From: Candidatus Omnitrophota bacterium
GTDB taxonomy: Bacteria; Omnitrophota; Gorgyraeia; Zapsychrales; Fredricksoniimonadaceae
Direction of reading: 5' to 3'
DNA: 64,000 nucleotides
Assembly (NCBI GenBank): GCA_013287965.1
Contig: JABDCU010000001.1
Location: 5,910 to 69,909, forward strand
The notes beneath the pieces were generated by a model. It was not told the DNA's origin and made no database searches. It saw only the letters and a list, made by a program, of their open reading frames with translations. Position numbers and translations under genes: made by a program. This document shows, one piece after another, positions 1,318 through 53,542 of the stretch (within the stretch, counting starts at the first letter, position 1; every line of letters starts with the position of its first letter).

Positions 1318-1580
1318 TTATTTACAACAATTAACATATGCCGTATAAGCCGCGCTGTTGCAAGTTATGCCTTGTCCGCTCATTTGCGCGTCACCGAAAG
1401 TGGTACCGTTGAGTACATAGCATGACCACGTGATCATCACCTCACCGGCACTGCAAGACGCGCTGGTATTGCCACTCCTTATCGTGCAAGTCCAGTTTGT
1501 GGGAGTAGCAGCCGCGGCATCCACATACCCCTTAGTCGCCGCGTCAGTGGACGCCGTGGGTGTGGCAAGGTTAACGATCT
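1318..1580. repeat. 3'-terminal module of the fibre gene. It is the partner of 441-700.
   Basis: See 441-700. Confidence 0.85.
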
Positions 1581-24481: not shown

Positions 24482-26731
24482 CTAGGTTAATTTCACCGGG
24501 GTCTCCGGCCTGGCCATCAGGTATCCCTGGCCAAAGGCCACCCTCAGCTCACGCAACACCTCTAGATCTTCCCTGGTTTCAATGCCTTCAGCGATCACAG
24601 AAGCTTTACAGCTTTCGATGACTTTTAAAAGACGTTTTAAACTGTTGGATTTTCCTGCGTCTTTTGAGATGCCATTGATGATCTTCCTGTCTATTTTCAC
24701 GATGTCCGGTTCTAAAAGGACCAGGGTCTCAATGGAACTGTGGCCGAAACCATAATCATCGAGGGCGATCAGGATCCCCGCCTCTTTGAGCTTCGTGACA
24801 CAAGGGACCAAATAAAGCGGGTCCCTTAAAATTTGCTGTTCATTGATCTCAAGGCAAAATTTGATGTTTTTCCCGGCAGACGCGAAATCCTGCAGCAGGC
24901 GCTCAACCGGGACCTCCGTGAGCGTGGAAGGAAAAATATTGATATAGACCCTCTGGGTGACCGGGACAACGGCTGCGGCCTCCTTAAGCGCCTTCAAACA
25001 TGTTTTCAGGCAGGCATAGTCAACGGTCCCCAAAATATCGGCATTGCGGGCAAAAAGAAAAAATGCATCAGGAGAAGAATACTCTTCATGGTCCAGGCGG
25101 GACAAAAGTTCAAAGCCCACCTTTGCCATGCTGCGTAGATCAAATATCGGCTGGGAAGCAGCGTAAAATTTATCGCCCGCGGCCAGGACTTTCTTGAGCT
25201 GAGAAGCAGCGTCGGGAACTTTCAAGCCGGCCTTAACCCGCTCCCCCTGGTACGCAATGCGGTCCTTGCCTTCACTCTTGCTTAAATGCAAAGATACATG
25301 TAATTGCTGGAGCAGTCCATCAATGGAAACAGGTGCCTCCCCCATAGGCACGATGCCTATGCTGCAGGTGGCCTTAACGACCTTCCCGAAGGAAGCTCCC
25401 ACAGAAGCCCGGGCAACAGCCATGCGTATCTTGTCCGCGACCTTGACCGCGTCCCCTTGCTTGCTGTCGAGCAAAAGCACCATGAACTCATCCCCGCCCA
25501 CCCTTGCAACGTAATCCGTCTGGCGGACCGTCTGGCGTATCTTATCAGCGACGGCAACAATGATGGCGTCCCCGATCCCATGGCCATGGCGGTCATTGAT
25601 CTGTTTGAAATTATCCAGGTCCAAAAGCAAGACCTGGATGCTTAGCCCCAGGCGCCGGACCATGTCGAATGTTTTTAACAGGACATCCTGCAGCCCCCTG
25701 CGGTTGAGGACCCCTGTCAATGGGTCATGGATGGCCATGGCCTGCAATTTTTTGATCGGATCAAAAATGGCCTCCGCGAATAATACACAACCCGCGATAA
25801 CAAGGAGCACGATCAAAAGGCAGATGATAAAAAACAAGGTGCGGATATTGCTGATCGAGGCAAAGACTTCCCCTCTATCGATTTTAGTGACCAACTGCCA
25901 ATTGACAAACGGGACATCCTGCCACACCGACAATACTTTATTGCCACGGTAATCAACGGTCTCTCTTATTTTCTTATCGACGGGCGGTGCTTTAAAGGCA
26001 AGCGCTGCCCGCTTGTTTAAAATGGCCTGAGGATCGTATAACAGAGGACTGATGAATAAATATTGATCATCCGCCATTTTTTTGACCAAAAACGTCTCCC
26101 CTGTACTGCCTAAACCCGTATTGTCCGAAATAAACTGGTAAATAACATTCATGTCCACTTCCAGGACGATGTATCCGGCGAACTGACTCTGTGTATCATG
26201 GGCCGCTGAAAGCAGATATAAAATGTACGGGTGCTTCCAATCCTTGGCCGCCACCGGGCCGCTGATATAGATATCTTTTTGGGCCTTTTGAAGCACGGCG
26301 TCATTAAAAAAAGTCCTGTCCAGATAGGTGCGGGCGTGCGCCGGGTCGGCGACAAAGACATCCTTGCCCTTCTTGTCCAAAAGAAGTATGTCGGCATAGG
26401 CGTAAGAATTCATGAAAGCCCGAAGCTGGTCATCCAATTGTAATTTGGCTTTGGAGTAGGCAAAACTGTAGCGGTCCCGGTCAAATTCCTGCAAGGTGGG
26501 AAGGTTTATCTGCACATCTGAAAACCCCTGGATGGCCCTTAAGTCTTCTTTTCTGGAATTAAAAAAAGTTTCCAGTTTATTTTGCTTAAGGGCTGAGACC
26601 GCCTTAAGCCGGTCATAGATCTCCCCTTTTAATTCTTTTTGGGTATTATAAAGGAAGATACCTGCCACGAGGACCAGCGGGATGATCGACAGGCTCAATG
26701 ATAAGATGATTATTTTCGCGTATATGCGCAT
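24482..26731 (-). CDS. Sensor diguanylate cyclase / phosphodiesterase (TM, periplasmic Cache-like domain, GGDEF and EAL domains).
   Basis: RVGGDEF GGDEF motif, and EAL-domain motifs (ELLSRL, DDYGFGHSS, EGIE). Two TM segments flank a periplasmic domain. Confidence 0.9.
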   Translation of the reverse strand: MRIYAKIIILSLSLSIIPLVLVAGIFLYNTQKELKGEIYDRLKAVSALKQNKLETFFNSRKEDLRAIQGFSDVQINLPTLQEFDRDRYSFAYSKAKLQLDDQLRAFMNSYAYADILLLDKKGKDVFVADPAHARTYLDRTFFNDAVLQKAQKDIYISGPVAAKDWKHPYILYLLSAAHDTQSQFAGYIVLEVDMNVIYQFISDNTGLGSTGETFLVKKMADDQYLFISPLLYDPQAILNKRAALAFKAPPVDKKIRETVDYRGNKVLSVWQDVPFVNWQLVTKIDRGEVFASISNIRTLFFIICLLIVLLVIAGCVLFAEAIFDPIKKLQAMAIHDPLTGVLNRRGLQDVLLKTFDMVRRLGLSIQVLLLDLDNFKQINDRHGHGIGDAIIVAVADKIRQTVRQTDYVARVGGDEFMVLLLDSKQGDAVKVADKIRMAVARASVGASFGKVVKATCSIGIVPMGEAPVSIDGLLQQLHVSLHLSKSEGKDRIAYQGERVKAGLKVPDAASQLKKVLAAGDKFYAASQPIFDLRSMAKVGFELLSRLDHEEYSSPDAFFLFARNADILGTVDYACLKTCLKALKEAAAVVPVTQRVYINIFPSTLTEVPVERLLQDFASAGKNIKFCLEINEQQILRDPLYLVPCVTKLKEAGILIALDDYGFGHSSIETLVLLEPDIVKIDRKIINGISKDAGKSNSLKRLLKVIESCKASVIAEGIETREDLEVLRELRVAFGQGYLMARPETPVKLT

Positions 26732-26741
26732 GGCCAGCGGC

Positions 26742-28751
26742 TCAATGTGAAGGTTTTGATTTACGCAGAAGGTTGTAGTAACCTGACAGCTTCCCCTTCA
26801 GTGAAATTTCATTGTCCCAATTGTTGATATGGATACGGTTTAATTCATAGGGATCGATATCAAAGCGGTCATAGCCCCGATTGGTCGTAAACGCGGCTTT
26901 ATACCCTGCCAACGCGATGATGGCCTTGATCTGCTCATTGAACCCTCCGGTAGGATAAGCAAAATAATAAACAGGCCGGCCTAAATTCTTTTCTATGATG
27001 CGTTTACTTCCTATGATCTCATCCTTCATCTGTTCTTGGGACATTTCCGGAAGATACGCGTGGTGACGGGTATGGCTCCCGAAAGAAATGCCGTACCGGC
27101 CCATTTCTTTGACCTGTTCCCAGTTCAAAAGGTTGGGTTTTTTCCCCACATAATCTGAGATCAAAAAAATAGTGGCCGGGAAATGGTACTTTTTTAGGAT
27201 AGGGAACGCATTCGTATAATTATCCATGTACCCGTCATCAAAAGTGATCACCACCGTATTATGAGGGAATTTTTTTCTTGCGTTGTTCCCTTCGATAAAA
27301 TCCTCAAGCGGGATCACATGGTACCCATTGTCCTCCAAAAAATCCATCTGTCTATCGAATAGTTTCGGACTGACCACGTTCAGTTGGGTCCTGACATCCG
27401 GGTGACGGAATAAAATATTGTCAGGGTTCGTATTAGCTGAAGAAACACTATGGTACATCAGGATCGGGACAACATATTCGTCCTGCGCCCAAACGAAAAA
27501 TCCAACAATGAAAATGAAAAAAATAAGGCAGATCGTCAATAAAAGGCGTTTGATATTTTTCCCCAGCTGATCGACACCAAATACCAGGGGCATGGCATGT
27601 TGCGTCCCTGCTTTGATCAATGGGGCCAACTGAAGCCATCCATACGCGGAAATAATAGCGATGTACGGCACTATAGGCACCCTATAACGTTCCCCCACCA
27701 GCCACATCTCGCTGATGATACTGCCGCTGACAAAATAAACGATGACAAGCAGTAAGAATTTATAATATTTATCTGCTTTTATCTTGATGGTCCCCCATAA
27801 AAATCCTGTCATCCAAAATATCATCAACGGATAACCCAGGACCTTACCGAAAACCGTAAAGGCATGACAATTAAAATTCTTAAAAGTCCCCGGCTTGGTC
27901 AATATGGACAACACACAACGCATGGTCACATTAATATAATAGGACACCGGCCCCATCTTCTGCGTAAAAGGGTCGGTATTCCTTAAATAACTTTTAAACA
28001 GCCCCACCTTGTAGGGGTCTTCCTGGAAGATACTGCTGAACGCAGGGTCCCCGAAAACCATGTAATTCCTTATTTGCCATATCCCCAGCAAAGCATACAC
28101 CACGGCCAAAAAAATAATGGAATGCAGGATGGACCTCTTAACATTATCGGCGGTATTTGTAAGTATAATAAAGAGGATGATGCCAAACCCGAGAAAATAA
28201 CTGCCCGGTCTTACATAGGTCGCCAAAACCAGCATCAAAGAAGACATGACAAGGGCGCTGACCTGCCCGTTTTTAAGGTACCGGATAAAATTAAACATAA
28301 ATAACGTCATTAAAAACAAAAATAACGTTTCTGTTAAGATCATCTGTGAATAAATGGAAACAATGATGGAATATAAAACTATCCCCGCGCTCAAAAAAGC
28401 CAGTTCAGGGTCTATCAAAACGGCTGTTTTATAAGTGATAAAGGCGGTGAGGACCGTTAAGAGCACTTGTATCAGGATGACGCCATTCAAAGGGACCCTC
28501 AAGAACCCATGCAAAATAGCAAGAAAAACGGGATACCCAGGGGTCCTGTTCAACTCGTGTTTTAGTGTTCCCGTCGCGTCGGTGGTGGCGAACACCCCTT
28601 TTGACGTGATCATCTCCGCCGTCTTCAGGTATTCAGATGAATCAGGCATGAATTTGCTTTGGGGTGCTTGCAGGAAGGCAAAAAGAAATAAAGCTATCTT
28701 TATTAAGATAGCGGCGCTGATAATTATCAAAAAATATTTTTTATTTCTCAT
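26742..28751 (-). CDS. Polytopic membrane protein (GT-C / ArnT-PMT-like) fused to a C-terminal NodB-type polysaccharide deacetylase domain.
   Basis: More than 10 TM helices. The C-terminal TFDDGYMDNY...HTRHH motifs match the NodB homology domain. Confidence 0.75.
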   Translation of the reverse strand: MRNKKYFLIIISAAILIKIALFLFAFLQAPQSKFMPDSSEYLKTAEMITSKGVFATTDATGTLKHELNRTPGYPVFLAILHGFLRVPLNGVILIQVLLTVLTAFITYKTAVLIDPELAFLSAGIVLYSIIVSIYSQMILTETLFLFLMTLFMFNFIRYLKNGQVSALVMSSLMLVLATYVRPGSYFLGFGIILFIILTNTADNVKRSILHSIIFLAVVYALLGIWQIRNYMVFGDPAFSSIFQEDPYKVGLFKSYLRNTDPFTQKMGPVSYYINVTMRCVLSILTKPGTFKNFNCHAFTVFGKVLGYPLMIFWMTGFLWGTIKIKADKYYKFLLLVIVYFVSGSIISEMWLVGERYRVPIVPYIAIISAYGWLQLAPLIKAGTQHAMPLVFGVDQLGKNIKRLLLTICLIFFIFIVGFFVWAQDEYVVPILMYHSVSSANTNPDNILFRHPDVRTQLNVVSPKLFDRQMDFLEDNGYHVIPLEDFIEGNNARKKFPHNTVVITFDDGYMDNYTNAFPILKKYHFPATIFLISDYVGKKPNLLNWEQVKEMGRYGISFGSHTRHHAYLPEMSQEQMKDEIIGSKRIIEKNLGRPVYYFAYPTGGFNEQIKAIIALAGYKAAFTTNRGYDRFDIDPYELNRIHINNWDNEISLKGKLSGYYNLLRKSKPSH

Positions 28752-43379: not shown

Positions 43380-46300
43380 TTAAACCGCCTTTAGGGACTG
43401 CGCATATAAATTCTGCAGCGACTCCACCGTAAACTCTTCTTTAATACTCGCTTCTATGCCGTTAACAGCTGCCCATGCCCCCTGCAGGGTTGTGATGCAG
43501 GGGATATTATGTAAAATAGCCGCCGCCCGGATGACCCTCATATCCGATTGGCTTTTCTTGCCTGAAGGTGTATTGATAATTAAGTTTATCTCACCTTTTT
43601 TGACTAATGTCAACGCGTTTTCTTCACCTTCATGATGTTTGTCCACAATGGTCACGTCAATGCCCGCTGAACGAAGCGCCTTGGCCGTTCCTCGCGTGGC
43701 CATCACCTTGAATTTCAGGTCTGCTAATTTCTTGGCAATGAACGCCACATCACGCTTGTCATGGTCATTGACACTGATAAAAACCACGCCTGATTTGGGC
43801 AAGGCCTGGTTGGCCGCCATTTGGGATTTGGCAAAAGCCGCGCCAAAATTCGAAGCGATCCCCATGACCTCGCCGGTGGATTTCATCTCCGGCCCTAAAA
43901 TAATATCCACCCCGGAAAAACGGCTGAAAGGCAGGACTGATTCTTTGACACAGATATATTTTAATTCTTCCGGATCGACCAATTCAAAATCACTTAATTT
44001 CTTGCCTGCCATGACCTGGGCCGCGATCTTGGCCAGCGGCATGCCGGTGGCTTTGCTGACAAAAGGGCTGGTGCGCGAGGCGCGCGGATTGACCTCCAGG
44101 ACATACACCTGGCGGCCCTTGACCGCGAACTGGATATTCATCAGGCCCACGACTTTCAGGGCATGGGCCAGGCGCACGGTCTGATTTTTAATGTCCTCGA
44201 TCACTTCTTCACTTAAAGTATGCGGCGGCAAAACGCAGGCTGAATCTCCTGAGTGAATGCCCGCGTTCTCAATATGTTCCATGACCCCGGCGACGTATAC
44301 ATCTTCACCGTCGCAGATGGCATCCACATCCACTTCCTGGGCATCTTCCAAAAACTTATCGATCAATACCGGATGCCCGCGCGAGACGCTGTGCACCTCA
44401 TCTAAAAAGGACTTGATAGATTCTTCATCATAAACAATACGCATGGCGCGCCCCCCAAGCACATAAGACGGACGGACGAGTACCGGATATCCAATGCGAT
44501 TGGCCGCGATCAGGGTTTCTTCCTTGGTTGTTGTTGAGGCGTTGGCCGGCTGTTTCAAACCCAGCTTGTCCATTAGCTTGGAAAAATGCTCCCGGTTTTC
44601 CGCCAGGTCAATGGAGTCAACAGAGGTCCCGATGATAGGCACTCCGGCCTGGGACAACCGGCGCGCTAAATTCAGCGGTGTCTGGCCGCCGAATTGCACG
44701 ATCACCCCATCGGGACGTTCCACTTCAAACACATTCATCACGTCTTCAAAGGTCAACGGTTCAAAATACAGCCTGTCGGACGTGTCATAATCCGTCGAAA
44801 CCGTCTCCGGATTGGAATTGACCATGATGGTTTCAAAACCCATTTCCTTAAGGGCAAAGGCCGCGTGGCAGCAGCAATAATCAAATTCGATCCCCTGGCC
44901 GATGCGGTTGGGCCCGCCGCCTAAGATCATGATCTTCTTCTTTTTAGATTTACGCTTTTGGTTATTGATGAGCGCTTCATCTTCAGTCTCATACGTCGAA
45001 TAATAATAAGGCGTATACGCTTCAAATTCCGCGGCACAAGTGTCCACTAATTTGAAAGTCGCCGTGATGCCCATGTCCTTACGCATTTGACGGACGTCTT
45101 TTTCACTTTTATCCAGGACCTCTGCCAATTGGGCATCGGAAAATCCGTATTCCTTGGCCTGGCGCAAAAGCTGAGGCGCCAAAGTCCCGCTGGATACAGC
45201 GACGGATTTCAAATGGTCCTCCAGCTCTAAGATCTGTGCTATCTGGTCAATGAACCAAATGTCGATCTTGGAAATTTCCGAGACCTGCTCTATGCTCATG
45301 CCTTTTTGCAAGGCGTATTTCAAATAGAAAATGCGTGAGGCATTGGGCTCAGCCAGGCGCAATTGGATCTTGGCGTCCTCAATATAGCGCCAGTCCTGTT
45401 TATTATCCAGGCCGATATGGTCGATCTCCAGGCCCCTTAACCCCTTTTGCAAAGCTTCCTTGAAATTGCGGCCGATGGCCATGGTCTCGCCGACACTTTT
45501 CATTTGTATGCCTAAGATGTCCTTGGCTTCGGGGAATTTTTCAAAAGTAAAGCGCGGGATCTTGACTACACAATAATCAATGGCAGGTTCAAAGCACGCG
45601 GGCGTTTCCCTGGTGATATCGTTCTGAATTTCATCCAGCGAATAGCCCACGGCCAATTTAGCGGCGAATTTGGCTATGGGGAATCCCGTGGCCTTGGATG
45701 CCAGCGCCGATGAACGCGAGACCCGTGGGTTCATTTCAATGACCACCATGCGCCCGTCTTTAGGATCAACGGCGAATTGGATATTCGACCCTCCGGTCTC
45801 TACCCCGATCTCACGGATCAAACGGATAGAAGCATCACGCATGTTCTGGTACTCGGCATCGGTCAATGTCTGCGCCGGAGCGACTGTAATGCTGTCCCCG
45901 GTATGCACGCCCATGGGGTCTAAATTTTCAATGGAACAGACGATCACGACATTATCCGCGTGGTCGCGCATCAGCTCCAGCTCATATTCTTTCCAGCCTT
46001 CGATGGATTCTTCAATAAGTATTTCATGGATCATGGAGCTTTCGATCCCCAGGGCCGCGATGCGTTCAAACTCCTGCGCATCATGCGCGATGCCGCCGCC
46101 CGTGCCTCCTAAAGTAAACGAAGCACGCACGATGCAGGGAAAACCGATCTGCCCCACTGCCTGTTTGGCTTCTTCGAGATTGTAAGCAAAGACACTTTTA
46201 GGCACATCCAGACCTACTTTGATGACCGCGGCTTTAAATTCACTGCGGTCTTCGGCCTTGCGGATCACCTCGTATTTTGCCCCCAGCATTTCAACATTAT

Positions 46301-46631
46301 ATTTGGCTAAAATGCCCTGCTCATGGAGTTTCATGGCCAAATTAAGGCCTGTCTGCCCGCCTAAAGTAGGCAAAATAGCGTCGGGCCTTTCCTTGCGGAT
46401 GATAAGTTCCAGGAATTCAGGGGTCAGGGGTTCAATATAAGTGGCGTCCGCGATGCCCGGGTCGGTCATGATGGTGGCAGGATTGGAATTGACCAATACT
46501 ACTTCATACCCTTCTTCCTTCAAGGCCTTGCAAGCCTGGGACCCGGAATAATCAAATTCGCAGGCCTGGCCTATGACAATGGGCCCTGCTCCGATGATCA
46601 TTATTTTCTTAATATCAACGCGTTTGGGCAT
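43380..46631 (-). CDS. carB: Carbamoyl-phosphate synthase large subunit.
   Basis: Duplicated ATP-grasp halves and an MGS-like C-terminal domain. 1083 aa with high similarity throughout. Confidence 0.96.
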
Positions 46632-47718
46632 TTTTATGCTTATCTATCATTTCAATAAACTGGCTGAATAAATATTTAGCGTCATGCGGTCCGGGGGCTG
46701 CTTCCGGGTGATACTGGATGGAAAATGCCGGAAAATGTTTATGCCGGATGCCTTCAACGCTCTGGTCATTTAAATTCACATGGATGACCTCTACCTCGCC
46801 CAGATCAAGGCTTTTGACATCCACGCAAAAGCCATGGTTTTGGCTGGTGACCGCGATGCGGTTCCCCTCAAAATCTTTGACCGGATGATTGGCCCCGTGA
46901 TGACCGAATTTTAATTTATATGTCTTTCCATCCAAGGCCAGCCCCAAGATCTGGTTGCCTAAGCAAATGCCGAAAATGGGCGTCTTGCCCAAAAGTCCCT
47001 TAACAGTGTCTATCACATAGGTCACCACCGCCGGATCGCCGGGCCCGTTGGAAAGGAACACCCCATCGGGCTTGATAGCCATGATCTCCTTAGAGCTCGC
47101 CTTGGCCGGGAACACATGCACCTCGCAGCCCATGCTGCTGAGGATGCGTAAAATATTAAACTTGATCCCGCAGTCAATGGCCGCGATCTTGTAAGCCCGA
47201 GGGCCATGGGACTTCCAAACATACTTCTTTAACGTGCTGACATCCTTGACAAAATCCATCCCTTCCATGGAAGGCATCGCATCCAGCTTTTGCTGGAGAC
47301 TTTTAGGGTCAAAATCTTCCGTTGAGATGATCGCTTTCATGGCCCCGGACATGCGCAAATGACGGGTCAAAGCACGGGTGTCCACCCCTTCCATCGCAAT
47401 GATCTTATTGTCATTTAAATAATCGGTAAGGCTTTTTTTAGCGCGCCAATTGGAATGGCGGCGGCAGAATTCTTTGACAACGAAGCCTTTGACGTGAACA
47501 GCGTCAGACTCAACATCCTGGTCATTAACACCGTAATTACCGATCAAGGGATAGGTCATCACAACGATTTGGCCGGTATAGGAGGGATCAGTGAGGACTT
47601 CCTGATAACCGGTCATGGCGGTATTAAAGACAGCTTCGCCCGCGGTTTCCCCGGTCTCTTTTAAAGTACGGCCGCGAAAACTTTTACCGTCCTGAAGATA
47701 TAATATTGCTTCTTTCAT
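46615..47718 (-). CDS. carA: Carbamoyl-phosphate synthase small subunit (glutamine amidotransferase).
   Basis: CarA N-terminal domain plus a class I GATase (GICLGNQ, HH...E). Confidence 0.94.
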
Positions 47719-47811: not shown

Positions 47812-48183
47812 TCAAGCAAGAGCTTCCCTGATCGCGGCAACGAGTTCTTCCGGAGGCGTGTTTTTCTGGATATAGTCCCGGGCCCCGTAAGAAGCGTAAT
47901 CAATAAAATTCTTGGGGGTATCAATGGATGTGTAAAAAATAACAGGGATGTCCTTCGTGGACGTGTTTTGTTTAAACTTTTTACACAATTCGATCCCTGA
48001 AATGCCCGGAAGCAGAATATCCAAAAGGATCAGGTCCAATCTATGCTCCAGGGCCTTACTCAGACCTATTGAGCCGTCTTCCGCCAAAAGGACATTGAAG
48101 TCGTATTTTGCCAAAAGCCTGCTGATCAAGGTTCTGTCCACAGGGTTGTCGTCAATGAACAAAATTGTTTTTTGCGCTGGCAT
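47812..48183 (-). CDS. Single-domain response regulator (CheY-like REC). The likely start is MPAQKTILFIDD.
   Basis: Residues DD...D...T...K in the canonical spacing (FIDDNP, LILLDILLPGISG, T, K). Confidence 0.8.
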   Translation of the reverse strand: MPAQKTILFIDDNPVDRTLISRLLAKYDFNVLLAEDGSIGLSKALEHRLDLILLDILLPGISGIELCKKFKQNTSTKDIPVIFYTSIDTPKNFIDYASYGARDYIQKNTPPEELVAAIREALA

Positions 48184-48223
48184 AGATAAATTGAGTATAC
48201 AACCATTCCGATGGTACTGGCAA

Positions 48224-51200
48224 CTATAAACCAAGAAAATTCTTCAAATCCGTCATGGGTTGGATACTGATGATCACCGGTACAAAGCCCGGGGCGTTTT
48301 GCAACTGCGCCAGCATGGCTGGATCAAGGTGAAATTCTATTTCACCTCCATTATTTTGAGTCTGTAAATTCATATTGGAAGGAGTTAGGTCGATACCGCC
48401 TTCACGAGTCTTATATTCAACCTTCCTTTGAATATTCTTTGTCACCATAGCATCATCTGTAATAGGTTTTCCCTCTACAACAATGCCTTGTTGTTTAAAA
48501 ATTTCCGCTACCAATGCATTACGAAAAAAGTTGGTAAATTCTCGCGTATAATCGCCTGCTTCTGACAATCTATGTCCCATTTCTTCCATATAAGACCTGC
48601 CGAAAGATTCTGGGTCTGCCAGTTGACTTCTTTTCATCCCAATCTTCTTTGTTGCTGTATTCCAATAAGCCTGGTACCCTTCCAGCGCATCACCTGTCAA
48701 TTTACTTTTAACAGAAGTGAAAACTTCCATAGGACTAGGTTCTATTTTTTTCCCTAATATTTCTTCCAATTTTTTATCAATAATCTGGCGAAGTTGTAGG
48801 ATTTTAATCTCCGCAGGGGTCAAATCATCTATATTCATATATTGAAAATCTGGTTCCAATACTTCAGAATCAAGGTGAACCCCTAAGCTATGGATTACTA
48901 ACGCGATATTATAGTTCATAAACACCACTTGATAACCCATATTTCTTAAGAGTAACTGTGTATCGGGATCATGGATGGTACGTTGTGTGCCTAAAACAAC
49001 CTTCTTGGGATCCCATCCTTTTTGACTTACAACACTTTCCCATGCATTCTGCCAAGTCTGACGGTTTTTGTATGAAGGAATTCTTGTTACATCTTGATAC
49101 TCCGGTCGAGATCCGTTAACTTTTAAAGCCGCATTAATAACCGCAGTTACAGCCTCAACAGAATCTGTTTGTGCCAACATCAATCCAATTGCTTCAGTGA
49201 CTTTGCCTGCATGAAGAACATTCCGGTCGGGAGAAACAATGATTCCAGGTATATTAATAAAATTATAACTCAATATATTATGATGTGAACGTGCAGTATC
49301 TTGAACCTCTAAACCTTGGACATAAAGCCTATCACTAGTCGTTGAAACTATTTCTCCGCCTTCTGTCGTACTTAATGGATGATAATTGGGATTTAGAATA
49401 AGTGCTTTTTCTGCTAAGCGTCTAACAGATTTTAAAAAATCTGAAGTAGGTTGAGTGAAAATGGTCTCCGAACCTTCTATAAGTTGTTTACGTAAATGTA
49501 CCATATCATAACTCAAAACTTGCACTTGGACTGATTTGCCATCAGCATCATTATAAAATTGTGTTTCGATTTTAGCTTTAGCTTTCCAATTTCTTGATCT
49601 TAATTCAAGCCCTAATCCCGCTCTTAAACAAGCTGCGGACAACATTTTGAGACCTTCTCCCCATCCGCCCGCAGCTTCAGGGGTTTCATTTTTTGTACTG
49701 AATAAAAGTCCTAAAAGTTTATAATCATACCCTGTTCCATTGTCTCGGATACGAACGGATGCAATCCGGTCATCGTGGAATTGAGAAATCTCATTAATAT
49801 CCAGCCATCGGGATTCCTCTTCACCTTTTAATGAAAATTCCACGTTAATCTTCGTGGAGCCTGCGTCTTTAGGCAAATGGTTTTGGACTGCATCCAATAA
49901 AATTCGATCAATCCCCCAAGCGGTTTCACGATAATTAAGAGTCAATCCGGTACTTACATTTTGATTTTCTTTCTCATAATAAATTGATGTTGTTGTTGCC
50001 ACGCCTGCTTTTACTAAAAGAATTCCTACAAGGCCAGATATGAGTACGACCTTTTTCCCTTCTTTAATTGCTTGTTCAGTAAGCGCATCCGGTTTTCCAC
50101 TATAACCCGTTGTCTCCCCCAATATTGCGTCTTCACCATATAAACCTTGAAATGCTTGACGCCATACATTAGCCGCCCGTTCATCCAACTTCCTGTAATA
50201 ATCAAAATATAGACCGTTTTCATAGAACTCCTCCGAAACCTTAAACTTACCGTCCTCCTCTTTCATTATAGATTTCTGTATAAAATGTTTTGCAATTTCA
50301 GGTGTTATATTCTCAAACATTGCTAACTTTACCACTGCCTCTATCGCTGAACGAGGCAGGTTATCACGATCACGATTAAGATCTGAATCATTAAAAAGAT
50401 TATAGTTAAAAAGAGCAGGCCTGTAAGCGATATTGCCGTCCGGAAGACTTATAACGTAATTTCCTTTAACATAAATTTCACTCTTTTCTCCTGAGCGTTT
50501 CCCTACAACTTCTCCCACATTTCCAGTGACCAGTGTTGGTCTATATTCCTGATTTAAAAACAACACCAAGTCTGGCAACCTTTTTGCTTGATTCAAAAAT
50601 TCAGAACTAGGGGAACGGATGATCGTCCTTGAACCTGACATTCCTTGTGTATCACTTACTTGTAATGCAATGTTATATGTGGCGATCTCATTTTGAAAAC
50701 CCTTATTAAGGATTTTTTCTGCTATGATTGGTTTAGCCTGCCAAGAGCGGGATTGAAATTCAACTTGAATACCCCGCTTCATTGCAGCCGCGGTCGCAAT
50801 TTTAAGACCTTCTCCAAATTTTCCTGACTCCTCAGTTGAGCCTTTGGTCGTAAGAAAATATTTCAAATGTTCTACATCATAACCGATACCATCATCCGCT
50901 ATCTCAATCGAATCAACATCCTCTGGTCGAAGAGATTGGACTTCTGGATCCAACAGCCCAATAGTTCTTCCGTTTTTTAAATGAAAGGTTACTTCGGTCT
51001 TGCTTCCTTTTGCATCCGCGGGTTTATGATTTTGGACAAAATCAATTAAAATACGGCGTTCATCCCATTTTTCCAAACCACCGTAATCAAGAGTCATGTC
51101 CGTATCAATTATTTTGACTCCTTGTGCTTTGGGGACGCTTTCAATTCTTTCAGGTTCAATTACCACTTCCTGCTTTACTGAATCATCTACCACCTCTTTG

Positions 51201-53017
51201 TTTTTATTATCTTTTTTACGCCAATTAAAAAGACCCGTACCAATATCCGTCTGATTACCTGTCTGATTTACGTCCGCTGGATTAATAAGAACGCCATCTT
51301 TTAATTCCCGCACAGCCGCATTATGGGCTTCAATCCAGCCCCATGTTGGATTCTGTTTACGATAAAAAACTTCCCGTTGTTCATGTTTCAGAAGCCGTAC
51401 ATTATTTAATTCTTCTTCCAGCCCCACTATAAGCCACTGCCCATTCCAGGGGCCTTCCTGGGATGATTGAAAATTTACTGACTTAGCCCCAAAACCTTCT
51501 TGGGGATTCATTACCCATTTATAAATGGCTTTACCTATACGGTCTTCTTGGGCATGCTGGCTAATTTTCAAAATCACATTCCCATCTTGATCGACATCCT
51601 CATCTACCAAACCTTTCTGCCTTAACTGCTCTACTAAAAATTCAATAATTTCGCTGTTCGAACCTGTGGCGGATAAATGGGCAAAACGCGCAATTAGCCG
51701 TAAAATTCTGTTCAAACGTTGTGCGTTTCTATCATGCGCCATGGACGTTGAAGGTAAATTTTGATCGGCATTATCGATCTTTGTTGTTTCACCTATGCCA
51801 GGATCAACAAAAGTACCCACTACATAGGTTCCATTAGTATCATTTATATTAGGCATGACTCCTGCTGAAGTAACCAGCGGTGTAATGTTTAATTTTTCTA
51901 GTGCTACCCCGCCTGAAAAATACTTTCTGGGAATGGTCTCTTGGGATAATGTGTCCGTATCTTCCTTAATATAATTGAACACGCCCTTCTTAAAAGCCTG
52001 TAAATACCGCCCATAAATTCTTTCTTTTTCTTTTGGATCATCAATATTGACCCCCACAACCTTGTTCTTATTCTCATAAACTTGCTCCAAGATACTGTCC
52101 TTGATCTTTTTCTTGTACCAGGTGGCTAAGATGAGGGAATTGTAAACTTGGCGCAATTTGGCAAAATTCTTGCCTTCGTTGACTTCCTTGGTGAGCTCTG
52201 GGATGACGATTTCTCTAACGATTTGAGAGCCTAAAGTACTCACGTCATTCTGAGGCGTAGCCGAAGAATCTAAAGGTGTCTTAAGATGCGCTGCGCTTCT
52301 TCGCTCGCTCAGGATGACAGAATGCTTTTCTAATGATAAATAATCCTGCTCAAGCATTACCTTTAGCTTTGCTTCCACTACATACGCGGTGCCGGCTTTG
52401 GCGTTTTCGTAAACTACGGCTTTTTCCGGCACTATCCATACCTTGTTAAAAGTATTGACCGGAATATTGGTTGTGCCAAATCTTTTAGACGCCTCTTCAT
52501 AAATACGCTTCCAGAATTTCTTGCCAATCTCATCCTCAGGATAAATCAAACTCGCTGTTATTTGTTTGAGCATGTAGTCTTCGGCAAGCAGGTCTCGGCC
52601 CATTTCAGTAAGACCAAAACTTTGAGGAATGATCCTATCCTTCTCGTAAGGGCTCAGGTTGACCCAAAGGTCTTTTTCAGGGATGGTTAGGCTGGCTAGG
52701 AAGTATTTGATTAATTTCGTGGATTCTATTTTAAGTTGTTCTTGGTTCTGGATTCCCGCTTTCGCGGGAATGACAGGGTTAGAATCGCCTTGGTCTAATA
52801 TGAAATCAAAACGGAAAGGATTGTCAGGATGGACTTTGATCCCTTTCAGCATTGGAGGATTAAGCGGTGGGCTTAGATGGACCATGACCCCGGGCGCAGG
52901 CAATCGAAAATCTTGGGCTTGAACTAAAGGAACATTAAAACCAGTAACAGTAAAACATACCGTTACCAGTAAGCTGATCATCCTGCGCCAATTTAAAAAA
53001 TGAACAGGGGCTCCCAT
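48224..53017 (-). CDS. Giant (1597 aa) signal-peptide-bearing protein with two tandem GHKL (HATPase_c_3 / MORC-Hsp90-like) ATPase-like domains. Function unknown. It contains an in-frame REP-1 insertion (VIPAKAGIQ).
   Basis: Signal peptide MISLLVTVCFTVTGFNVPLVQAQ. Two copies of the N-box (DFVQNHKPADA, DAVQNHLPKDA), G1 (ADDGIGYD, RDNGTGYD) and G2 (GKFGEGLK, GGWGEGLK) are present. No HisKA H-box was recognised. Confidence 0.7.
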   Translation of the reverse strand: MGAPVHFLNWRRMISLLVTVCFTVTGFNVPLVQAQDFRLPAPGVMVHLSPPLNPPMLKGIKVHPDNPFRFDFILDQGDSNPVIPAKAGIQNQEQLKIESTKLIKYFLASLTIPEKDLWVNLSPYEKDRIIPQSFGLTEMGRDLLAEDYMLKQITASLIYPEDEIGKKFWKRIYEEASKRFGTTNIPVNTFNKVWIVPEKAVVYENAKAGTAYVVEAKLKVMLEQDYLSLEKHSVILSERRSAAHLKTPLDSSATPQNDVSTLGSQIVREIVIPELTKEVNEGKNFAKLRQVYNSLILATWYKKKIKDSILEQVYENKNKVVGVNIDDPKEKERIYGRYLQAFKKGVFNYIKEDTDTLSQETIPRKYFSGGVALEKLNITPLVTSAGVMPNINDTNGTYVVGTFVDPGIGETTKIDNADQNLPSTSMAHDRNAQRLNRILRLIARFAHLSATGSNSEIIEFLVEQLRQKGLVDEDVDQDGNVILKISQHAQEDRIGKAIYKWVMNPQEGFGAKSVNFQSSQEGPWNGQWLIVGLEEELNNVRLLKHEQREVFYRKQNPTWGWIEAHNAAVRELKDGVLINPADVNQTGNQTDIGTGLFNWRKKDNKNKEVVDDSVKQEVVIEPERIESVPKAQGVKIIDTDMTLDYGGLEKWDERRILIDFVQNHKPADAKGSKTEVTFHLKNGRTIGLLDPEVQSLRPEDVDSIEIADDGIGYDVEHLKYFLTTKGSTEESGKFGEGLKIATAAAMKRGIQVEFQSRSWQAKPIIAEKILNKGFQNEIATYNIALQVSDTQGMSGSRTIIRSPSSEFLNQAKRLPDLVLFLNQEYRPTLVTGNVGEVVGKRSGEKSEIYVKGNYVISLPDGNIAYRPALFNYNLFNDSDLNRDRDNLPRSAIEAVVKLAMFENITPEIAKHFIQKSIMKEEDGKFKVSEEFYENGLYFDYYRKLDERAANVWRQAFQGLYGEDAILGETTGYSGKPDALTEQAIKEGKKVVLISGLVGILLVKAGVATTTSIYYEKENQNVSTGLTLNYRETAWGIDRILLDAVQNHLPKDAGSTKINVEFSLKGEEESRWLDINEISQFHDDRIASVRIRDNGTGYDYKLLGLLFSTKNETPEAAGGWGEGLKMLSAACLRAGLGLELRSRNWKAKAKIETQFYNDADGKSVQVQVLSYDMVHLRKQLIEGSETIFTQPTSDFLKSVRRLAEKALILNPNYHPLSTTEGGEIVSTTSDRLYVQGLEVQDTARSHHNILSYNFINIPGIIVSPDRNVLHAGKVTEAIGLMLAQTDSVEAVTAVINAALKVNGSRPEYQDVTRIPSYKNRQTWQNAWESVVSQKGWDPKKVVLGTQRTIHDPDTQLLLRNMGYQVVFMNYNIALVIHSLGVHLDSEVLEPDFQYMNIDDLTPAEIKILQLRQIIDKKLEEILGKKIEPSPMEVFTSVKSKLTGDALEGYQAYWNTATKKIGMKRSQLADPESFGRSYMEEMGHRLSEAGDYTREFTNFFRNALVAEIFKQQGIVVEGKPITDDAMVTKNIQRKVEYKTREGGIDLTPSNMNLQTQNNGGEIEFHLDPAMLAQLQNAPGFVPVIISIQPMTDLKNFLGL
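52749..52778. repeat. REP-1 element copy inside the GHKL giant gene.
   Basis: tggattcccgctttcgcgggaatgacaggg. Confidence 0.85.
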
Positions 53018-53161
53018 GCTTAAAGTATTTAGTATAAAACTATATAATGCAAGGGCTTGGGAAGGATTTTGAGGAAACGGTTTCCTGTAAATATACCGAC
53101 GAGATAAAAAAATTCTATCTAAGATCAGAGGAAAATGATCTTTTAATTATTTCATAAAGGA

Positions 53162-53542
53162 TTAAATATGCGCTACAACTTCGATTTCCACCATGGAATC
53201 CTTGGGAATGCGGGCAACCTGGATGGTGGAGCGGGCCGGCGCTGTTTCGGCCTTAAAATGCTTGGCGTAGACCTCATTCATTCCCGCGAAATCATTGAGG
53301 TCTTTGAGGAAAACCGTGGCCTTGACCACCTTTTCCAAAGATGAACCGCCGTGGGTCAAGACCGCGATGAGATTTTGGATGACTTGCTCTGTCTGCTCCT
53401 TGATGCCGCCGGGAACCATATTGCCTTGGACATCCAGCGGGATCTGCCCGGCCGTATAAATTAAATTGCCGATGGACACGGCTTGATTATAGGGGCCAAC
53501 GGGTAAGGATGCTTTATCTGTTTTAATGATCTTCTTGCTCAT
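53162..53542 (-). CDS. ridA: RidA/YjgF family reactive-intermediate deaminase.
   Basis: Full-length match to the RidA family (APAPVGPYSQA-like PYNQAVSIG, C-terminal IEVVA). Confidence 0.88.
   Translation of the reverse strand: MSKKIIKTDKASLPVGPYNQAVSIGNLIYTAGQIPLDVQGNMVPGGIKEQTEQVIQNLIAVLTHGGSSLEKVVKATVFLKDLNDFAGMNEVYAKHFKAETAPARSTIQVARIPKDSMVEIEVVAHI

What the first reader, a model, noticed from the sequence alone, without database searches (positions are those of the whole stretch)
47812..53017. Exported 1597-aa protein with tandem GHKL ATPase-like domains followed by a stand-alone CheY-like receiver
The large ORF has a Sec-type signal peptide. It contains two complete sets of GHKL N, G1 and G2 boxes (DFVQNHKPADA / ADDGIGYD / GKFGEGLK, and DAVQNHLPKDA / RDNGTGYD / GGWGEGLK). 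Each set is preceded by a conserved TL(D/N)Y..(W)....IL(I/L)D..QN segment. No HisKA dimerisation or H-box was recognised. GHKL folds normally work in the cytoplasm with ATP, so a signal-peptide-bearing tandem GHKL giant is atypical. The immediately downstream overlapping gene encodes a receiver-only response regulator, hinting at a non-canonical signalling pair.
Basis: partly seen in the sequence, partly recalled or inferred. Interest (0 to 1): 0.6.

Follow-up and report, generated by a model that had tools for sequence, protein, structure and literature searches.

The report
Exported carrier protein with GHKL cargo
This gene is one of thousands of Omnitrophota proteins in which a signal peptide, a shared head domain and a shared tail domain bracket a normally cytoplasmic enzyme, here a double Hsp90/MutL-like ATPase. 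The response regulator next door belongs to a conserved housekeeping gene block, so the two are not a signalling pair.

Summary
A 1597-aa ORF lies on the minus strand (48224-53017). It has a Sec-type signal peptide and two duplicated GHKL-like modules (36% identity, E=2e-35), and no HisKA domain. A canonical receiver-only gene follows it.

- The modules have a Bergerat fold closest to Hsp90, MutL and MORC, not to histidine kinases.
- The response regulator is not a partner. None of 4 orthologue loci has one, and in 3 of 3 syntenic relatives the same regulator sits in a RidA-...-RR-carA-carB block without the big gene.

The bigger point is the architecture.
- Residues 35-370 (ending PRKYFSGG) and 1540-1597 (GGIDL...FVPVIISIQP...FLGL) are constant brackets.
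- Thousands of Omnitrophota proteins share them, tens per genome, around very different cytoplasmic-type cargo.
- The cargo here (aa 626-1497) is collinear with stand-alone ~1000-aa proteins. These carry no signal peptide, and the named ones come from CPR and DPANN lineages.
- A D-x-A-M motif punctuates domain boundaries across the family.

Neither bracket domain matches Pfam, NCBIfam or PDB. Export is inferred, not shown. Delivery of the cargo to the surface or into a host cell is a hypothesis.

The parts
48224..53017 (-). Whole gene, 1597 aa plus stop
   Evidence: ORF list and translation. An identical protein, P0001, is on record from a 107-kb contig. Six full-length orthologues share 46-57% identity.
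52916..53017 (-). Predicted Sec signal peptide, aa 1-34, with predicted cleavage VQA|QD
   Evidence: A basic n-region, a short h-region, G/P breakers and an A/V-x-A site are conserved in 118 family members. The residues before Met13 are conserved in close paralogues, so Met1 is the start. No SignalP run was possible.
51908..52915 (-). Family-constant N-terminal domain, aa 35-370 (LPAPG ... PRKYFSGG)
   Evidence: It is 58-78% identical in 113 listed proteins with unrelated middles. The [RK][KQ]YFSGG end motif is in 120/120. At least 550 copies occur in GTDB species genomes, and 14 of the top 80 come from one MAG. No Pfam, NCBIfam or PDB match. The AF2 model has low confidence.
52750..52774 (-). 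25-nt hairpin repeat inserted in frame (aa 81-89, VIPAKAGIQ) in a variable loop of the N-domain
   Evidence: 7 copies in the window against 0 expected. The sequence forms an 8-bp stem with a GAAA loop.
52244..52318 (-). 75-nt element with 11-nt terminal inverted repeats, inserted in frame (aa 234-258)
   Evidence: Pattern match. The homologous peptide VILSAAKDLKTPLDSSATPQNDV occupies the same loop in paralogues.
51143..51907 (-). Orthologue-specific linker region, aa 371-625
   Evidence: Conserved only among the 7 orthologues, at 0.4-0.57 identity per 40-aa bin. No Pfam hit.
48527..51142 (-). Cargo, aa 626-1497, collinear with stand-alone ~1000-aa proteins
   Evidence: BLASTP against P0122: 29% identity over 895 aa, E=3e-90, covering P0122 aa 158-973 of 996. 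The stand-alone homologues lack signal peptides and both bracket domains.
50462..51109 (-). GHKL (Bergerat-fold) core 1, aa 637-852. Motifs: D-F-V-Q-N (659), DDGIG (708), GKFGEG (732), GSRT (795)
   Evidence: Pfam HATPase_c 25.8 bits (cut-off 26.4) and HATPase_c_3 22.1 bits. AF2 pLDDT is about 80. Foldseek best hits are Hsp90, TRAP1, HtpG, MutL and MORC4. The motif columns are invariant.
49313..49957 (-). GHKL (Bergerat-fold) core 2, aa 1021-1235. Motifs: D-A-V-Q-N (1042), DNGTG (1092), GGWGEG (1117), GSET (1182)
   Evidence: Internal duplicate of core 1, E=2e-35. Secondary-structure elements follow the same order as in core 1 in the AF2 model. HATPase_c gives sub-threshold hits in 11 of 14 modules.
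48572..48586 (-). Degenerate zincin motif EEMGH, aa 1478-1482
   Evidence: It aligns with HEKTH (HExxH) of P0122 and HETLH of orthologues P0005 and P0006. Most stand-alone homologues have exactly one HExxH.
48446..48457 (-). D-D-A-M, the family's D-x-A-M punctuation motif, 16 aa before the C-domain
   Evidence: 237 motifs observed against 12 expected in 117 variable middles. In 58 of 117 proteins it lies within 30 aa upstream of the C-domain.
48227..48400 (-). Family-constant C-terminal domain, aa 1540-1597 (GGIDL...FHLDPAML..LQNAPGFVPVIISIQP...FLGL)
   Evidence: GGI[DN][LFT] lies 46-84 aa from the C-terminus in 117/120 family members. No Pfam or NCBIfam match. AF2 pLDDT is below 50.
47812..48183 (-). 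Stand-alone receiver (CheY-like) gene, 123 aa. It is not part of the system
   Evidence: Response_reg 89 bits. Orthologues are 70-81% identical. RR-carA-carB synteny is conserved without the big gene. Its GC3 of 0.55 is like its neighbours.
48194..48223 (-). Promoter-like TTGCCA-18-TATACT in the 40-nt gap before the receiver gene
   Evidence: Consensus scan, 10/12 matches. This is a consensus match only. The region as a whole has no more such sites than shuffled sequence.

Best explanation
SHOWN. The ORF is a mosaic protein from an Omnitrophota bacterium. From N- to C-terminus it contains:
- a Sec-type signal peptide (aa 1-34);
- a ~335-aa N-terminal domain (aa 35-370);
- a lineage-specific linker;
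- a cargo region (aa 626-1497);
- a D-x-A-M motif;
- a 58-aa C-terminal domain.

The N- and C-terminal domains are constant brackets. Thousands of Omnitrophota proteins share them, tens per genome, while their middles carry unrelated, mostly cytoplasmic-type enzymes.

The cargo here is a complete copy of a rare ~1000-aa protein type. That type otherwise occurs without a signal peptide, and the members that carry a name come from CPR and DPANN lineages. It consists of two tandem Bergerat-fold ATPase modules of the Hsp90/MutL/MORC kind, followed by a zincin-like region. In the window protein the HExxH of that region has decayed to EEMGH.

The downstream response regulator belongs to a conserved RidA-...-RR-carAB block and is unrelated.

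INFERRED.
- The signal peptide sends the protein through Sec and is cleaved after VQA.
- The constant N- and C-domains then determine the fate of the exported protein: anchoring, display, or onward transfer.
- The cargo is a payload. It needs ATP, so either it acts in an ATP-containing target compartment such as a host cell, or it works as an ATP-independent binder.
- D-x-A-M may be a linker or a processing site.
For: Architecture and family:
- 4673 cluster representatives match the query. Below the orthologues (P0002-P0008), every listed hit matches only the first 21-29% of the query, at 58-78% identity, and has a different middle.
- The YFSGG end motif is in 120/120.
- The C-terminal GGIDL domain is in 117/120.
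- At least 550 copies occur in GTDB species genomes, 14 of the top 80 in one MAG.
- Paralogues within one MAG are 79% identical in protein but only 47% identical at third codon positions. This indicates purifying selection rather than gene conversion.

Signal peptide: family-wide conservation of the three-part layout and the A/V-x-A site.

Cargo:
- Internal duplication, E=2e-35.
- The four Bergerat motifs are invariant in 14 modules.
- HATPase_c or HATPase_c_3 hits in 11 and 8 of 14 modules. The hit is above the cut-off in homologue P0131.
- AF2 plus Foldseek give Hsp90 at E=1.5e-6, then MutL and MORC4.
- Collinear with stand-alone P0122, E=3e-90.
- 145 of 147 homologues lack an N-terminal hydrophobic segment.

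Response regulator unrelated.

D-x-A-M: a 20-fold excess, set at the protein level rather than the DNA level.
Against: - Export is predicted from sequence features only.
- The folds of the N- and C-domains are unknown (AF2 pLDDT about 50-85 and below 50; no significant Foldseek hit).
- No link to any secretion or sorting machinery was established.
- ATP is not available outside the cell, so an exported GHKL cargo has no obvious energy source.
- The catalytic Glu is Asp in both modules, and the HExxH is lost, so the cargo may be catalytically weak or dead.
- The window protein's own Pfam GHKL scores are just below the curated cut-offs.
- A profile of the modules finds no PDB sequence.
Confidence: 0.6

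Rival explanations
1. Membrane-tethered cytoplasmic scaffold. The N-terminal hydrophobic segment is an uncleaved anchor. The body, with its ATP-, SAM- and GTP-dependent cargo, stays on the cytoplasmic face. The family would then be a way of tethering enzymes to the inner membrane.
For: - The cargo across the family depends on cytoplasmic cofactors: methyltransferases, kinases, GGDEF, MutS, receivers and GHKL.
- Stand-alone homologues of this cargo are predicted to be soluble and cytoplasmic.
- Nielsen & Lui (bioRxiv 10.64898/2026.06.07.730766) read comparable enzyme modules in the TM-only class of Omnitrophota long proteins as sitting on the cytoplasmic face.
Against: - The basic residues precede the hydrophobic segment. 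By the positive-inside rule, the body would therefore be placed outside.
- The h-region is only about 14 residues and ends in G-P-x-P.
- A conserved A/V-x-A site follows it in about 80% of members.
- The body contains no second convincing TM segment. The one hydrophobic window (aa 987-1010) is a buried strand-helix in the model and is not hydrophobic in orthologues.
Confidence: 0.17
2. Extracytoplasmic, ATP-independent Hsp90-like holdase or binding protein. It would work in the periplasm or on the surface of the Omnitrophota cell itself, with no transfer to another cell.
For: - Signal peptide.
- The closest folds are Hsp90-family chaperones.
- Glu-to-Asp in the N-box and loss of HExxH fit a non-catalytic role.
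Against: - All ATP-contacting motifs (N, G1, G2, G-S/T) are invariant in both modules of all seven orthologues. This conservation is hard to explain without nucleotide binding.
- The reading does not explain why the same brackets carry dozens of unrelated enzymes.
Confidence: 0.12
3. A non-canonical two-component pair. The exported tandem GHKL protein would sense something and signal to the downstream CheY-like receiver.
For: - The two genes are adjacent on the same strand, 40 nt apart.
- The receiver has intact acidic-pocket, Thr and Lys residues.
Against: - No HisKA/H-box.
- Hsp90/MutL/MORC-type fold, not kinase-type.
- 0 of 4 orthologue loci have a receiver.
- The receiver is conserved next to carA in 3 of 3 relatives that lack the big gene.
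- GC3 differs strongly: 0.55 for the receiver against about 0.3 for the cargo.
- A promoter-like site lies in the gap.
- A body outside the membrane could not reach a cytoplasmic receiver.
Confidence: 0.03
4. A decaying or selfish mosaic with no function of its own. It would be a captured foreign gene drifting in a variable genomic slot.
For: - The cargo GC3 of 0.28-0.33 contrasts with 0.54-0.63 in the neighbours.
- The slot between RidA and the receiver holds other genes in relatives.
- HExxH is lost.
- Repeat elements are inserted in frame.
Against: - The 4.8-kb frame is intact.
- Six orthologues share 46-57% identity, with long runs of invariant residues including all the nucleotide-binding motifs.
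- Low cargo GC3 is a general trait of the family.
Confidence: 0.05

Closest known systems
Hsp90/HtpG, MutL and MORC ATPases (the GHL branch of the GHKL superfamily; Pfam HATPase_c and HATPase_c_3)
   Same: - The Bergerat fold is predicted for both modules.
- The N-box Asn, DxGxG, GxxGxG and G-S/T-x-T motifs are conserved.
- The best structural matches are Hsc82, TRAP1, HtpG, the MutL N-terminal fragment and MORC4.
   Different: - Asp replaces the catalytic Glu.
- The N-box reads D-x-V-Q-N-H with two extra residues before D-A.
- Two modules lie in tandem in one chain.
- Sequence scores fall below the Pfam cut-offs, and there is no PDB sequence relative.
- The modules are fused to a zincin-like tail.
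- Here, uniquely, they sit behind a signal peptide.
Omnitrophota giant multi-enzyme proteins ('Archaeovorin' type: West-Roberts et al., bioRxiv 10.1101/2023.11.21.568195; Nielsen & Lui, bioRxiv 10.64898/2026.06.07.730766)
   Same: - Same phylum.
- A signal peptide or TM segment is combined with cytoplasmic-type enzyme modules.
- The domain repertoire is the same: HATPase_c, methyltransferases, GNAT, HAD, GGDEF, receivers, HEAT, PPDK_N.
   Different: - The proteins here are 0.9-2.8 kaa, not 10-147 kaa.
- They carry one or a few cargo units between a defined N-domain and a defined C-domain.
- They occur in tens of copies per genome.
- The passages I read or term-searched in those papers do not mention these bracket domains or the D-x-A-M motif.
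Type IX secretion cargo (Sec signal peptide plus conserved C-terminal sorting domain)
   Same: The layout is formally similar: a cleavable signal peptide, variable enzymatic cargo, and a small conserved C-terminal domain shared by many otherwise unrelated proteins in one genome.
   Different: - No hit to the NCBIfam or Pfam T9SS C-terminal-domain models.
- There is an additional 335-aa constant N-domain.
- The phylum is different.
- The cargo is mostly of cytoplasmic type.
- The presence of T9SS genes was not examined.
Polymorphic toxin and effector families (Rhs, CDI, LXG, MafB)
   Same: A constant trafficking part is combined with highly variable payloads. There are many paralogues per genome, and the payload types are also found as stand-alone proteins elsewhere.
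   Different: - The variable part is central, not C-terminal, and is closed by a constant C-domain.
- The payloads are ordinary metabolic or regulatory enzymes, not recognisable toxins.
- No immunity-like gene was seen downstream.
- No PADLOC hit.
Sensor histidine kinase with cognate response regulator
   Same: A GHKL-superfamily ATP-binding fold lies next to a receiver gene.
   Different: - No DHp/HisKA domain or phospho-accepting His.
- No kinase-type structural match.
- The receiver is not conserved with the gene and belongs to another block.

Membership tests
GHKL (Bergerat-fold) ATPase superfamily | Motif I / N-box: acidic residue-x-x-x-Asn (Mg2+ ligand) | tested here: met
   D-F-V-Q-N (aa 657-661) and D-A-V-Q-N (aa 1040-1044). 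D24 and N28 are invariant in 14 modules. The acidic residue is Asp rather than Glu.
GHKL (Bergerat-fold) ATPase superfamily | Motifs II-IV: DxGxG, GxxGxG and G-(S/T)-x-T | tested here: met
   DDGIG/DNGTG, GKFGEG/GGWGEG and GSRT/GSET. D73, G75, G77, G97, G100, G102, G160 and T163 are invariant.
GHKL (Bergerat-fold) ATPase superfamily | Alpha/beta sandwich fold similar to solved members | tested here: met
   In the AF2 model the modules have pLDDT about 80. Foldseek against PDB gives 25 hits at E<=1e-3, all of them Hsp90-family chaperones (Hsp90/Hsc82, TRAP1, HtpG). MutL (E=1.3e-3) and MORC4 (E=6e-3) follow. The alignment behind the model has only 7 sequences.
GHKL (Bergerat-fold) ATPase superfamily | Score above the Pfam gathering threshold for HATPase_c or HATPase_c_3 | tested here: not met
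   25.8 against 26.4 bits, and 22.1 against 25 bits. Hits are sub-threshold but consistent in 11 of 14 modules. Homologue P0131 passes, at 28.6 against 25 bits.
GHKL (Bergerat-fold) ATPase superfamily | ATP binding and hydrolysis | not testable with these tools
   Needs purified modules.
Two-component sensor histidine kinase | DHp/HisKA dimerisation domain with phospho-accepting His | tested here: not met
   No HisKA-type family appears at E<=10 in the piecewise Pfam scans, nor in NCBIfam.
Two-component sensor histidine kinase | Kinase-type catalytic domain | tested here: not met
   No histidine kinase is among the top 50 Foldseek matches.
Two-component sensor histidine kinase | Cognate response regulator conserved in the neighbourhood | tested here: not met
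   0 of 4 orthologue loci have one. The regulator is conserved in the carAB block without the gene in 3 of 3 relatives.
Omnitrophota N-/C-bracketed cargo family (unnamed; defined here) | Signal peptide with an A/V-x-A site about 4 residues before LPxPG | tested here: met
   VQA|QDFR-LPAPG in the window protein.
Omnitrophota N-/C-bracketed cargo family (unnamed; defined here) | N-domain of about 335 aa ending in [RK][KQ]YFSGG | tested here: met
   aa 35-370. It is 58-78% identical to the listed members. The motif is in 120/120.
Omnitrophota N-/C-bracketed cargo family (unnamed; defined here) | C-terminal domain of about 55-60 aa starting with GGI[DN][LFT] | tested here: met
   aa 1540-1597. The motif is in 117/120.
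Omnitrophota N-/C-bracketed cargo family (unnamed; defined here) | D-x-A-M punctuation at domain boundaries | tested here: met
   DDAM at aa 1521-1524. Family-wide, 237 are observed against 12 expected.
Zincin metallopeptidase (HExxH) | HExxH zinc-binding motif | tested here: not met
   The window protein has EEMGH. This aligns with HEKTH in P0122 and HETLH in P0005 and P0006. The fold of this region was not identified.
Type IX secretion cargo | Recognisable T9SS C-terminal sorting domain | tested here: not met
   No NCBIfam or Pfam hit for the C-terminal region.
Polymorphic toxin systems | C-terminal variable toxin followed by an immunity gene | tested here: not met
   The variable part is internal. 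The downstream genes differ and are not immunity-like: TPR protein, caspase-helicase, LptFG, receiver.

The most novel reading that the evidence does not exclude
The constant N-domain and C-domain form a previously undescribed protein-delivery format of Omnitrophota. It is a Sec-exported carrier that takes ordinary cytoplasmic enzymes, here a double Hsp90/MutL-like ATPase captured from a stand-alone gene, to the cell surface and into the cytoplasm of a host or prey cell. There ATP, SAM and GTP are available. D-x-A-M would be the site at which cargo units are cut free. The 10-147-kaa multi-enzyme giants of the phylum would be the extreme form of the same principle.
Probability: 0.2. Interest if true: 0.85.

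Novelty: new variant of a known kind. Interest (0 to 1): 0.6.

Why it matters
Omnitrophota are mostly ultra-small cells that are thought to depend on hosts or prey on them. How they act on other cells is unknown. The only published lead is their giant multi-enzyme proteins, which are too large to handle experimentally.

The family this gene belongs to offers the same puzzle in a tractable size of 1-2.7 kaa. The puzzle is that cytoplasmic-type, cofactor-dependent enzymes sit behind an export signal. The family also has two defined constant domains and a candidate processing motif, all of which can be expressed, localised and solved.

If the brackets prove to be a carrier, this would be a new route of protein export or delivery. 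It would also explain why an ATP-dependent GHKL protein carries a signal peptide.

Separately, the cargo defines a rare, unstudied tandem GHKL-plus-zincin protein family. It has 358 clusters among 1.84 billion representatives. The few members that carry a name come from CPR and DPANN lineages, and the bracketed copies come from Omnitrophota.

Tried and rejected
(1) Homologue search with the module alone returned nothing, not even the protein itself. This looks like a limitation of the word index. The exhaustive HMMER search replaced it.

(2) Profile searches of the modules and of the N+C brackets against PDB sequences found no relatives.

A full-length short paralogue (P0079) was predicted instead, but only at mean pLDDT 54. 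Its best Foldseek matches were ClyA, MakE and NheA at E>=0.25 and probability below 0.1. I treat these as noise.

(5) Hypothesis: D-x-A-M is an in-frame ribosome-binding site plus start codon, that is, a fusion scar or internal start. Rejected.
- There is no Shine-Dalgarno enrichment upstream (13% against 12%).
- Asp codons occur at the background ratio.
- Only the Ala codon is skewed, towards GCG/GCC.

(6) Hypothesis: the low GC3 of the cargo proves recent horizontal transfer. Softened. Cargo GC3 is lower than N-domain GC3 in 10 of 14 paralogues of another MAG.

(7) Hypothesis: the brackets are kept alike by gene conversion. Rejected. Third-position identity among paralogues of one MAG is only 47%.

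(8) Tat export. The twin-arginine pair is not conserved in the family.

(9) Anti-phage defence. No PADLOC hit.

(10) Phage origin. Only 3 N-domain loci in 2.9 million viral contigs.

(11) My guesses that some paralogues carry subtilisin or lipase cargo got no Pfam support and were dropped.

(12) No paralogue of the brackets lies elsewhere in the window. The weak tblastn hits there come from the 25-nt hairpin repeat.

Full report
**1. What is there**

The region holds one long ORF on the minus strand, 48224..53017 (1597 aa, ATG start). It is followed by a short ORF at 47812..48234. The flanking genes on the same strand are ordinary housekeeping genes:
- downstream, carA (46615-47718) and carB (43380-46631);
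- upstream, a RidA-family gene (53162-53542), an HI0933-like flavoprotein and an RluB-type pseudouridine synthase.

The two motif sets are not chance resemblances. Residues 637-852 and 1021-1235 align at 36% identity over 222 residues, E=2e-35.

Pfam finds no HisKA or other kinase dimerisation domain, even in piecewise scans at E<=10.

The short ORF is a canonical receiver domain (Response_reg, 89 bits). Its real start is almost certainly the ATG at 48183.
- The Pfam domain starts at residue 24 of the long reading.
- Most of the listed orthologues are 123-125 aa.

So the two genes do not overlap. They are separated by 40 nt, and that gap contains a promoter-like TTGCCA-18-TATACT (a consensus match only).

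**2. The signal peptide**

No dedicated predictor was available, so I used family conservation. I aligned 118 relatives on the LPxPG motif that opens the mature protein. The N-termini show four features:
- basic residues first;
- then a short hydrophobic core of about 14 residues;
- then G-P-x-P;
- then A/V-Q-A four to five residues before LPxPG. Ala is at the predicted -1 position in 97/118, and Ala or Val at -3 in 95/118.

In the window protein this reads ...FNVPLVQA|QDFRLPAPG.

The twin arginine of the window protein is not conserved in the family, so Sec rather than Tat is the likely route.

The residues before Met13 (NWRR) are conserved in close paralogues (P0012, P0013, P0059). Met1 is therefore the start, although neither ATG has a Shine-Dalgarno sequence.

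The basic residues come before the hydrophobic segment. The body would therefore be placed outside the cytoplasmic membrane whether or not the peptide is cleaved.

The only other hydrophobic window (aa 987-1010) is a buried strand-helix in the model. It is not hydrophobic in orthologues.

**3. The GHKL modules**

Sequence evidence:
- The window protein scores just under the curated cut-offs: HATPase_c 25.8 against 26.4 bits, and HATPase_c_3 22.1 against 25 bits.
- I cut the two modules out of seven orthologues. Eleven of the 14 hit HATPase_c and eight hit HATPase_c_3, all sub-threshold.
- A more distant homologue from Patescibacteria passes the HATPase_c_3 cut-off.
- In the 14-module alignment all four Bergerat motifs are invariant: D-x-V-Q-N-H, D-x-G-x-G-Y-D, G-x-x-G-x-G-x-K and G-S-x-T.
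- The one departure is Asp in place of the usual catalytic Glu, four residues before the Asn.

Structural evidence:
- An AlphaFold2 model of aa 621-1597 (7 sequences, mean pLDDT 71, modules about 80) gives both modules the same order of secondary-structure elements.
- Foldseek against the PDB returns Hsc82/Hsp90, TRAP1 and HtpG first (E from 1.5e-6). The MutL N-terminal fragment and MORC4 follow.
- No histidine kinase is in the top 50.

The GHKL reading is therefore supported at the fold level, and the class is Hsp90/MutL/MORC-like, not kinase-like. A profile of the modules finds no PDB sequence, so the family is remote from anything solved.

**4. The response regulator is not a partner**

The four orthologue loci with readable flanks have other neighbours:
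- a TPR protein (two loci);
- a caspase-helicase protein;
- convergent LptF/LptG genes.

Conversely, the regulator has hundreds of orthologues at 70-81% identity.

In three relatives on long contigs the gene order is pseudouridine synthase, HI0933-like (absent in L089), RidA, glutathione peroxidase (plus a CxxCxxCC protein in two of the three), RR, carA, carB, purF, pyrG. This is the same block as in the window, except that the slot between RidA and the regulator holds small redox genes instead of the 1597-aa gene.

The regulator's GC3 (0.55) matches its neighbours (0.54-0.63). The cargo of the big gene has GC3 of 0.28-0.33.

The signalling-pair idea is therefore refuted, as far as comparative data can refute it.

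**5. The larger picture: constant brackets around variable cargo**

The homologue search returned 4673 cluster representatives.
- Six are full-length orthologues, plus one contig-end fragment that covers 62% of the query (46-57% identity).
- Every other listed hit matches only the first 21-29% of the query, yet at 58-78% identity.
- These hits continue into entirely different middles. Precomputed Pfam entries and source names include SAM methyltransferases, adenosine deaminase, guanylate kinase, MutS, GGDEF, receivers, GNAT, HEAT, WD40, M48 peptidase, metallophosphoesterase, PPDK_N and HATPase_c.

The shared part ends with [RK][KQ]YFSGG in 120/120.

117 of 120 also end with the same ~55-60-residue tail. 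It starts with GGI[DN][LFT] 46-84 residues from the C-terminus. In the window protein it is GGIDLTPSNMNLQTQNNGGEIEFHLDPAMLAQLQNAPGFVPVIISIQPMTDLKNFLGL.

Distribution of the N-domain:
- All of the top 80 are in MAGs, nearly all labelled Omnitrophota. Some are labelled 'uncultured Planctomycetales' and one simply 'bacterium'.
- 14, 8 and 7 of those 80 come from single MAGs.
- The window itself has only this one copy.

Within one MAG the 14 N-domains are 79% identical in protein but only 47% identical at third codon positions. They are therefore old paralogues held by purifying selection, not by gene conversion.

Neither bracket domain matches Pfam, NCBIfam or any PDB sequence. The N-domain is nearly absent from viral contigs, with 3 loci.

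A full-length model of a short paralogue reached only pLDDT 54. It shows an alpha+beta N-domain with three hairpins and long helices, an unresolved C-domain, and no significant structural match.

**6. The cargo is a captured stand-alone protein**

The exhaustive HMMER search with the module profile found only 358 clusters among 1.84 billion representatives. Many are ~1000-aa proteins with two tandem modules that start near residue 150.

The few members that carry a name come from Patescibacteria, Peregrinibacteria and Nanoarchaeia. One partial sequence is binned as Heimdallarchaeota.

Of the 147 listed representatives that were not already in hand:
- none has the N-domain and one has the C-domain;
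- only 2 have an N-terminal hydrophobic segment;
- most have exactly one HExxH motif;
- D-x-A-M is essentially absent.

Window residues 626-1497 align collinearly with residues 158-973 of the 996-aa P0122 (29% identity, E=3e-90). In this alignment the window's EEMGH sits opposite HEKTH. Orthologues P0005 and P0006 keep HETLH.

So the gene is a normally cytoplasmic tandem-GHKL-plus-zincin protein that has been placed between the Omnitrophota brackets, with the zincin motif since degraded.

**7. The D-x-A-M motif**

In the variable middles of 117 family members, D-x-A-M occurs 237 times against 12 expected from shuffles. It tends to lie just after the N-domain and, in 58 of 117 proteins, within 30 residues before the C-domain. 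The window protein has DDAM at aa 1521-1524.

At the DNA level (164 sites in the fetched loci), Asp codons follow the background ratio and there is no upstream Shine-Dalgarno enrichment. The motif is therefore selected at the protein level. It is a linker or processing signal rather than a fusion scar. Its role is unknown.

**8. How it most likely works**

Shown:
- the mosaic architecture;
- membership of the bracket family;
- the Hsp90/MutL/MORC-type fold of the cargo;
- the independence of the regulator.

Inferred:
- Sec export and cleavage after VQA.
- A carrier or sorting role for the constant N- and C-domains. This is the only role that explains why they are under strong selection while the middle can be almost anything.
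- A payload role for the cargo.

The payloads need ATP, SAM or GTP. The most economical reading is that they act in a compartment that supplies these, which would be a host or prey cell. That fits the host-dependent or predatory lifestyle proposed for the phylum and the published giant multi-enzyme proteins with the same domain repertoire.

No secretion machinery was linked to the family. The brackets' folds are unknown, and nothing was localised. I give this delivery reading about 0.2. I give 0.6 to the overall statement, which covers the bracket-family member, the exported protein, the GHKL payload and the unrelated regulator.

The main rival is a membrane-tethered cytoplasmic scaffold (0.17). 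It is disfavoured by the charge distribution, the short h-region and the conserved cleavage site.

**9. Novelty and verdict**

What is really there is a new variant of a known kind. Omnitrophota proteins that combine export signals with cytoplasmic-type enzymes have been described for the giants. However, the passages I read or term-searched in the available papers do not mention:
- a compact, highly paralogous format with a defined N-domain, C-domain and D-x-A-M punctuation;
- the tandem GHKL-zincin cargo family.

Absence from that library does not prove that these features are undescribed.

Interest is 0.6. The specific gene is one member among thousands, but the family is a tractable entry point to an open question.

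Noticed in passing
window 52750-52774 (-); also 12521, 12827, 14212, 23532, 54790, 55596: A 25-nt hairpin repeat, GTCATTCCCGCGAAAGCGGGAATCC (8-bp stem, GAAA loop), occurs 7 times in the window against 0 expected. Most copies fall within listed ORFs or at their ends. One copy is in frame in the N-domain of the big gene, where it encodes VIPAKAGIQ. The same peptide recurs in paralogues from other MAGs. The repeat also explains the weak tblastn hits elsewhere in the window.
   Followed up: partly
window 52244-52318 (-): A 75-nt element with 11-nt terminal inverted repeats (GTCATCCTGAG...CTCAGAATGAC) is inserted in frame in a second loop of the N-domain (aa 234-258). Paralogues carry the related peptide VILSAAKDLKTPLDSSATPQNDV at the same place. 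MITE-like elements seem to be tolerated in two loops of this domain.
   Followed up: partly
family-wide; window 48446-48457 (-): D-x-A-M occurs about 20 times more often than expected in the variable middles of the family, at domain boundaries. It is set at the protein level, yet the Ala codon is skewed to GCG/GCC (72% against 41% background). Its function is unknown. It could be a processing site.
   Followed up: partly
window 48224-53017 against flanks: GC3 is 0.28-0.33 in the cargo, 0.43-0.47 in the two bracket domains and 0.54-0.63 in the neighbouring housekeeping genes. The N-domain also has higher GC3 than the cargo in 10 of 14 paralogues of another MAG, so this is a family trait of unknown cause.
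   Followed up: partly
window 53018-53161 and 48184-48223; L088-L090: The slot between RidA and the receiver gene is variable within an otherwise conserved block (pseudouridine synthase ... RidA | slot | RR-carA-carB-purF-pyrG). Relatives hold a glutathione peroxidase gene there, and two of the three also a CxxCxxCC protein gene. The window holds the 4.8-kb gene.
   Followed up: yes
window 1318-9357 (-): A second very long ORF (2679 aa) has no Pfam hit. It is Gly/Thr/Ser-rich, has a TM-like segment at about aa 62-80, and its GC3 (0.57) is like its neighbours. It is not a member of the bracket family.
   Followed up: no
P0121-P0267 (homologues of the cargo): The tandem GHKL-plus-HExxH protein type is rare (358 clusters). 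The few named members come from Patescibacteria, Peregrinibacteria and Nanoarchaeia, which like Omnitrophota are small-celled, host-associated lineages. One is fused to a transglutaminase core, and one has a weak SprT-like hit.
   Followed up: partly
window 48572-48586 (-) and orthologues P0002-P0007: The zincin HExxH is replaced by EExxH in 5 of 7 bracketed orthologues. It is retained (HETLH) in P0005 and P0006 and in most stand-alone homologues.
   Followed up: partly
and tables: There are annotation oddities. JGI names some family members 'ribosomal protein L21E' or 'signal transduction histidine kinase'. Several MAGs that carry many N-domain genes are labelled 'uncultured Planctomycetales'.
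   Followed up: no
window 24482-26731 (-) and 26742-28751 (-): A dCache-GGDEF-EAL protein gene lies next to a PMT_2 plus polysaccharide-deacetylase protein gene. Both look ordinary.
   Followed up: no
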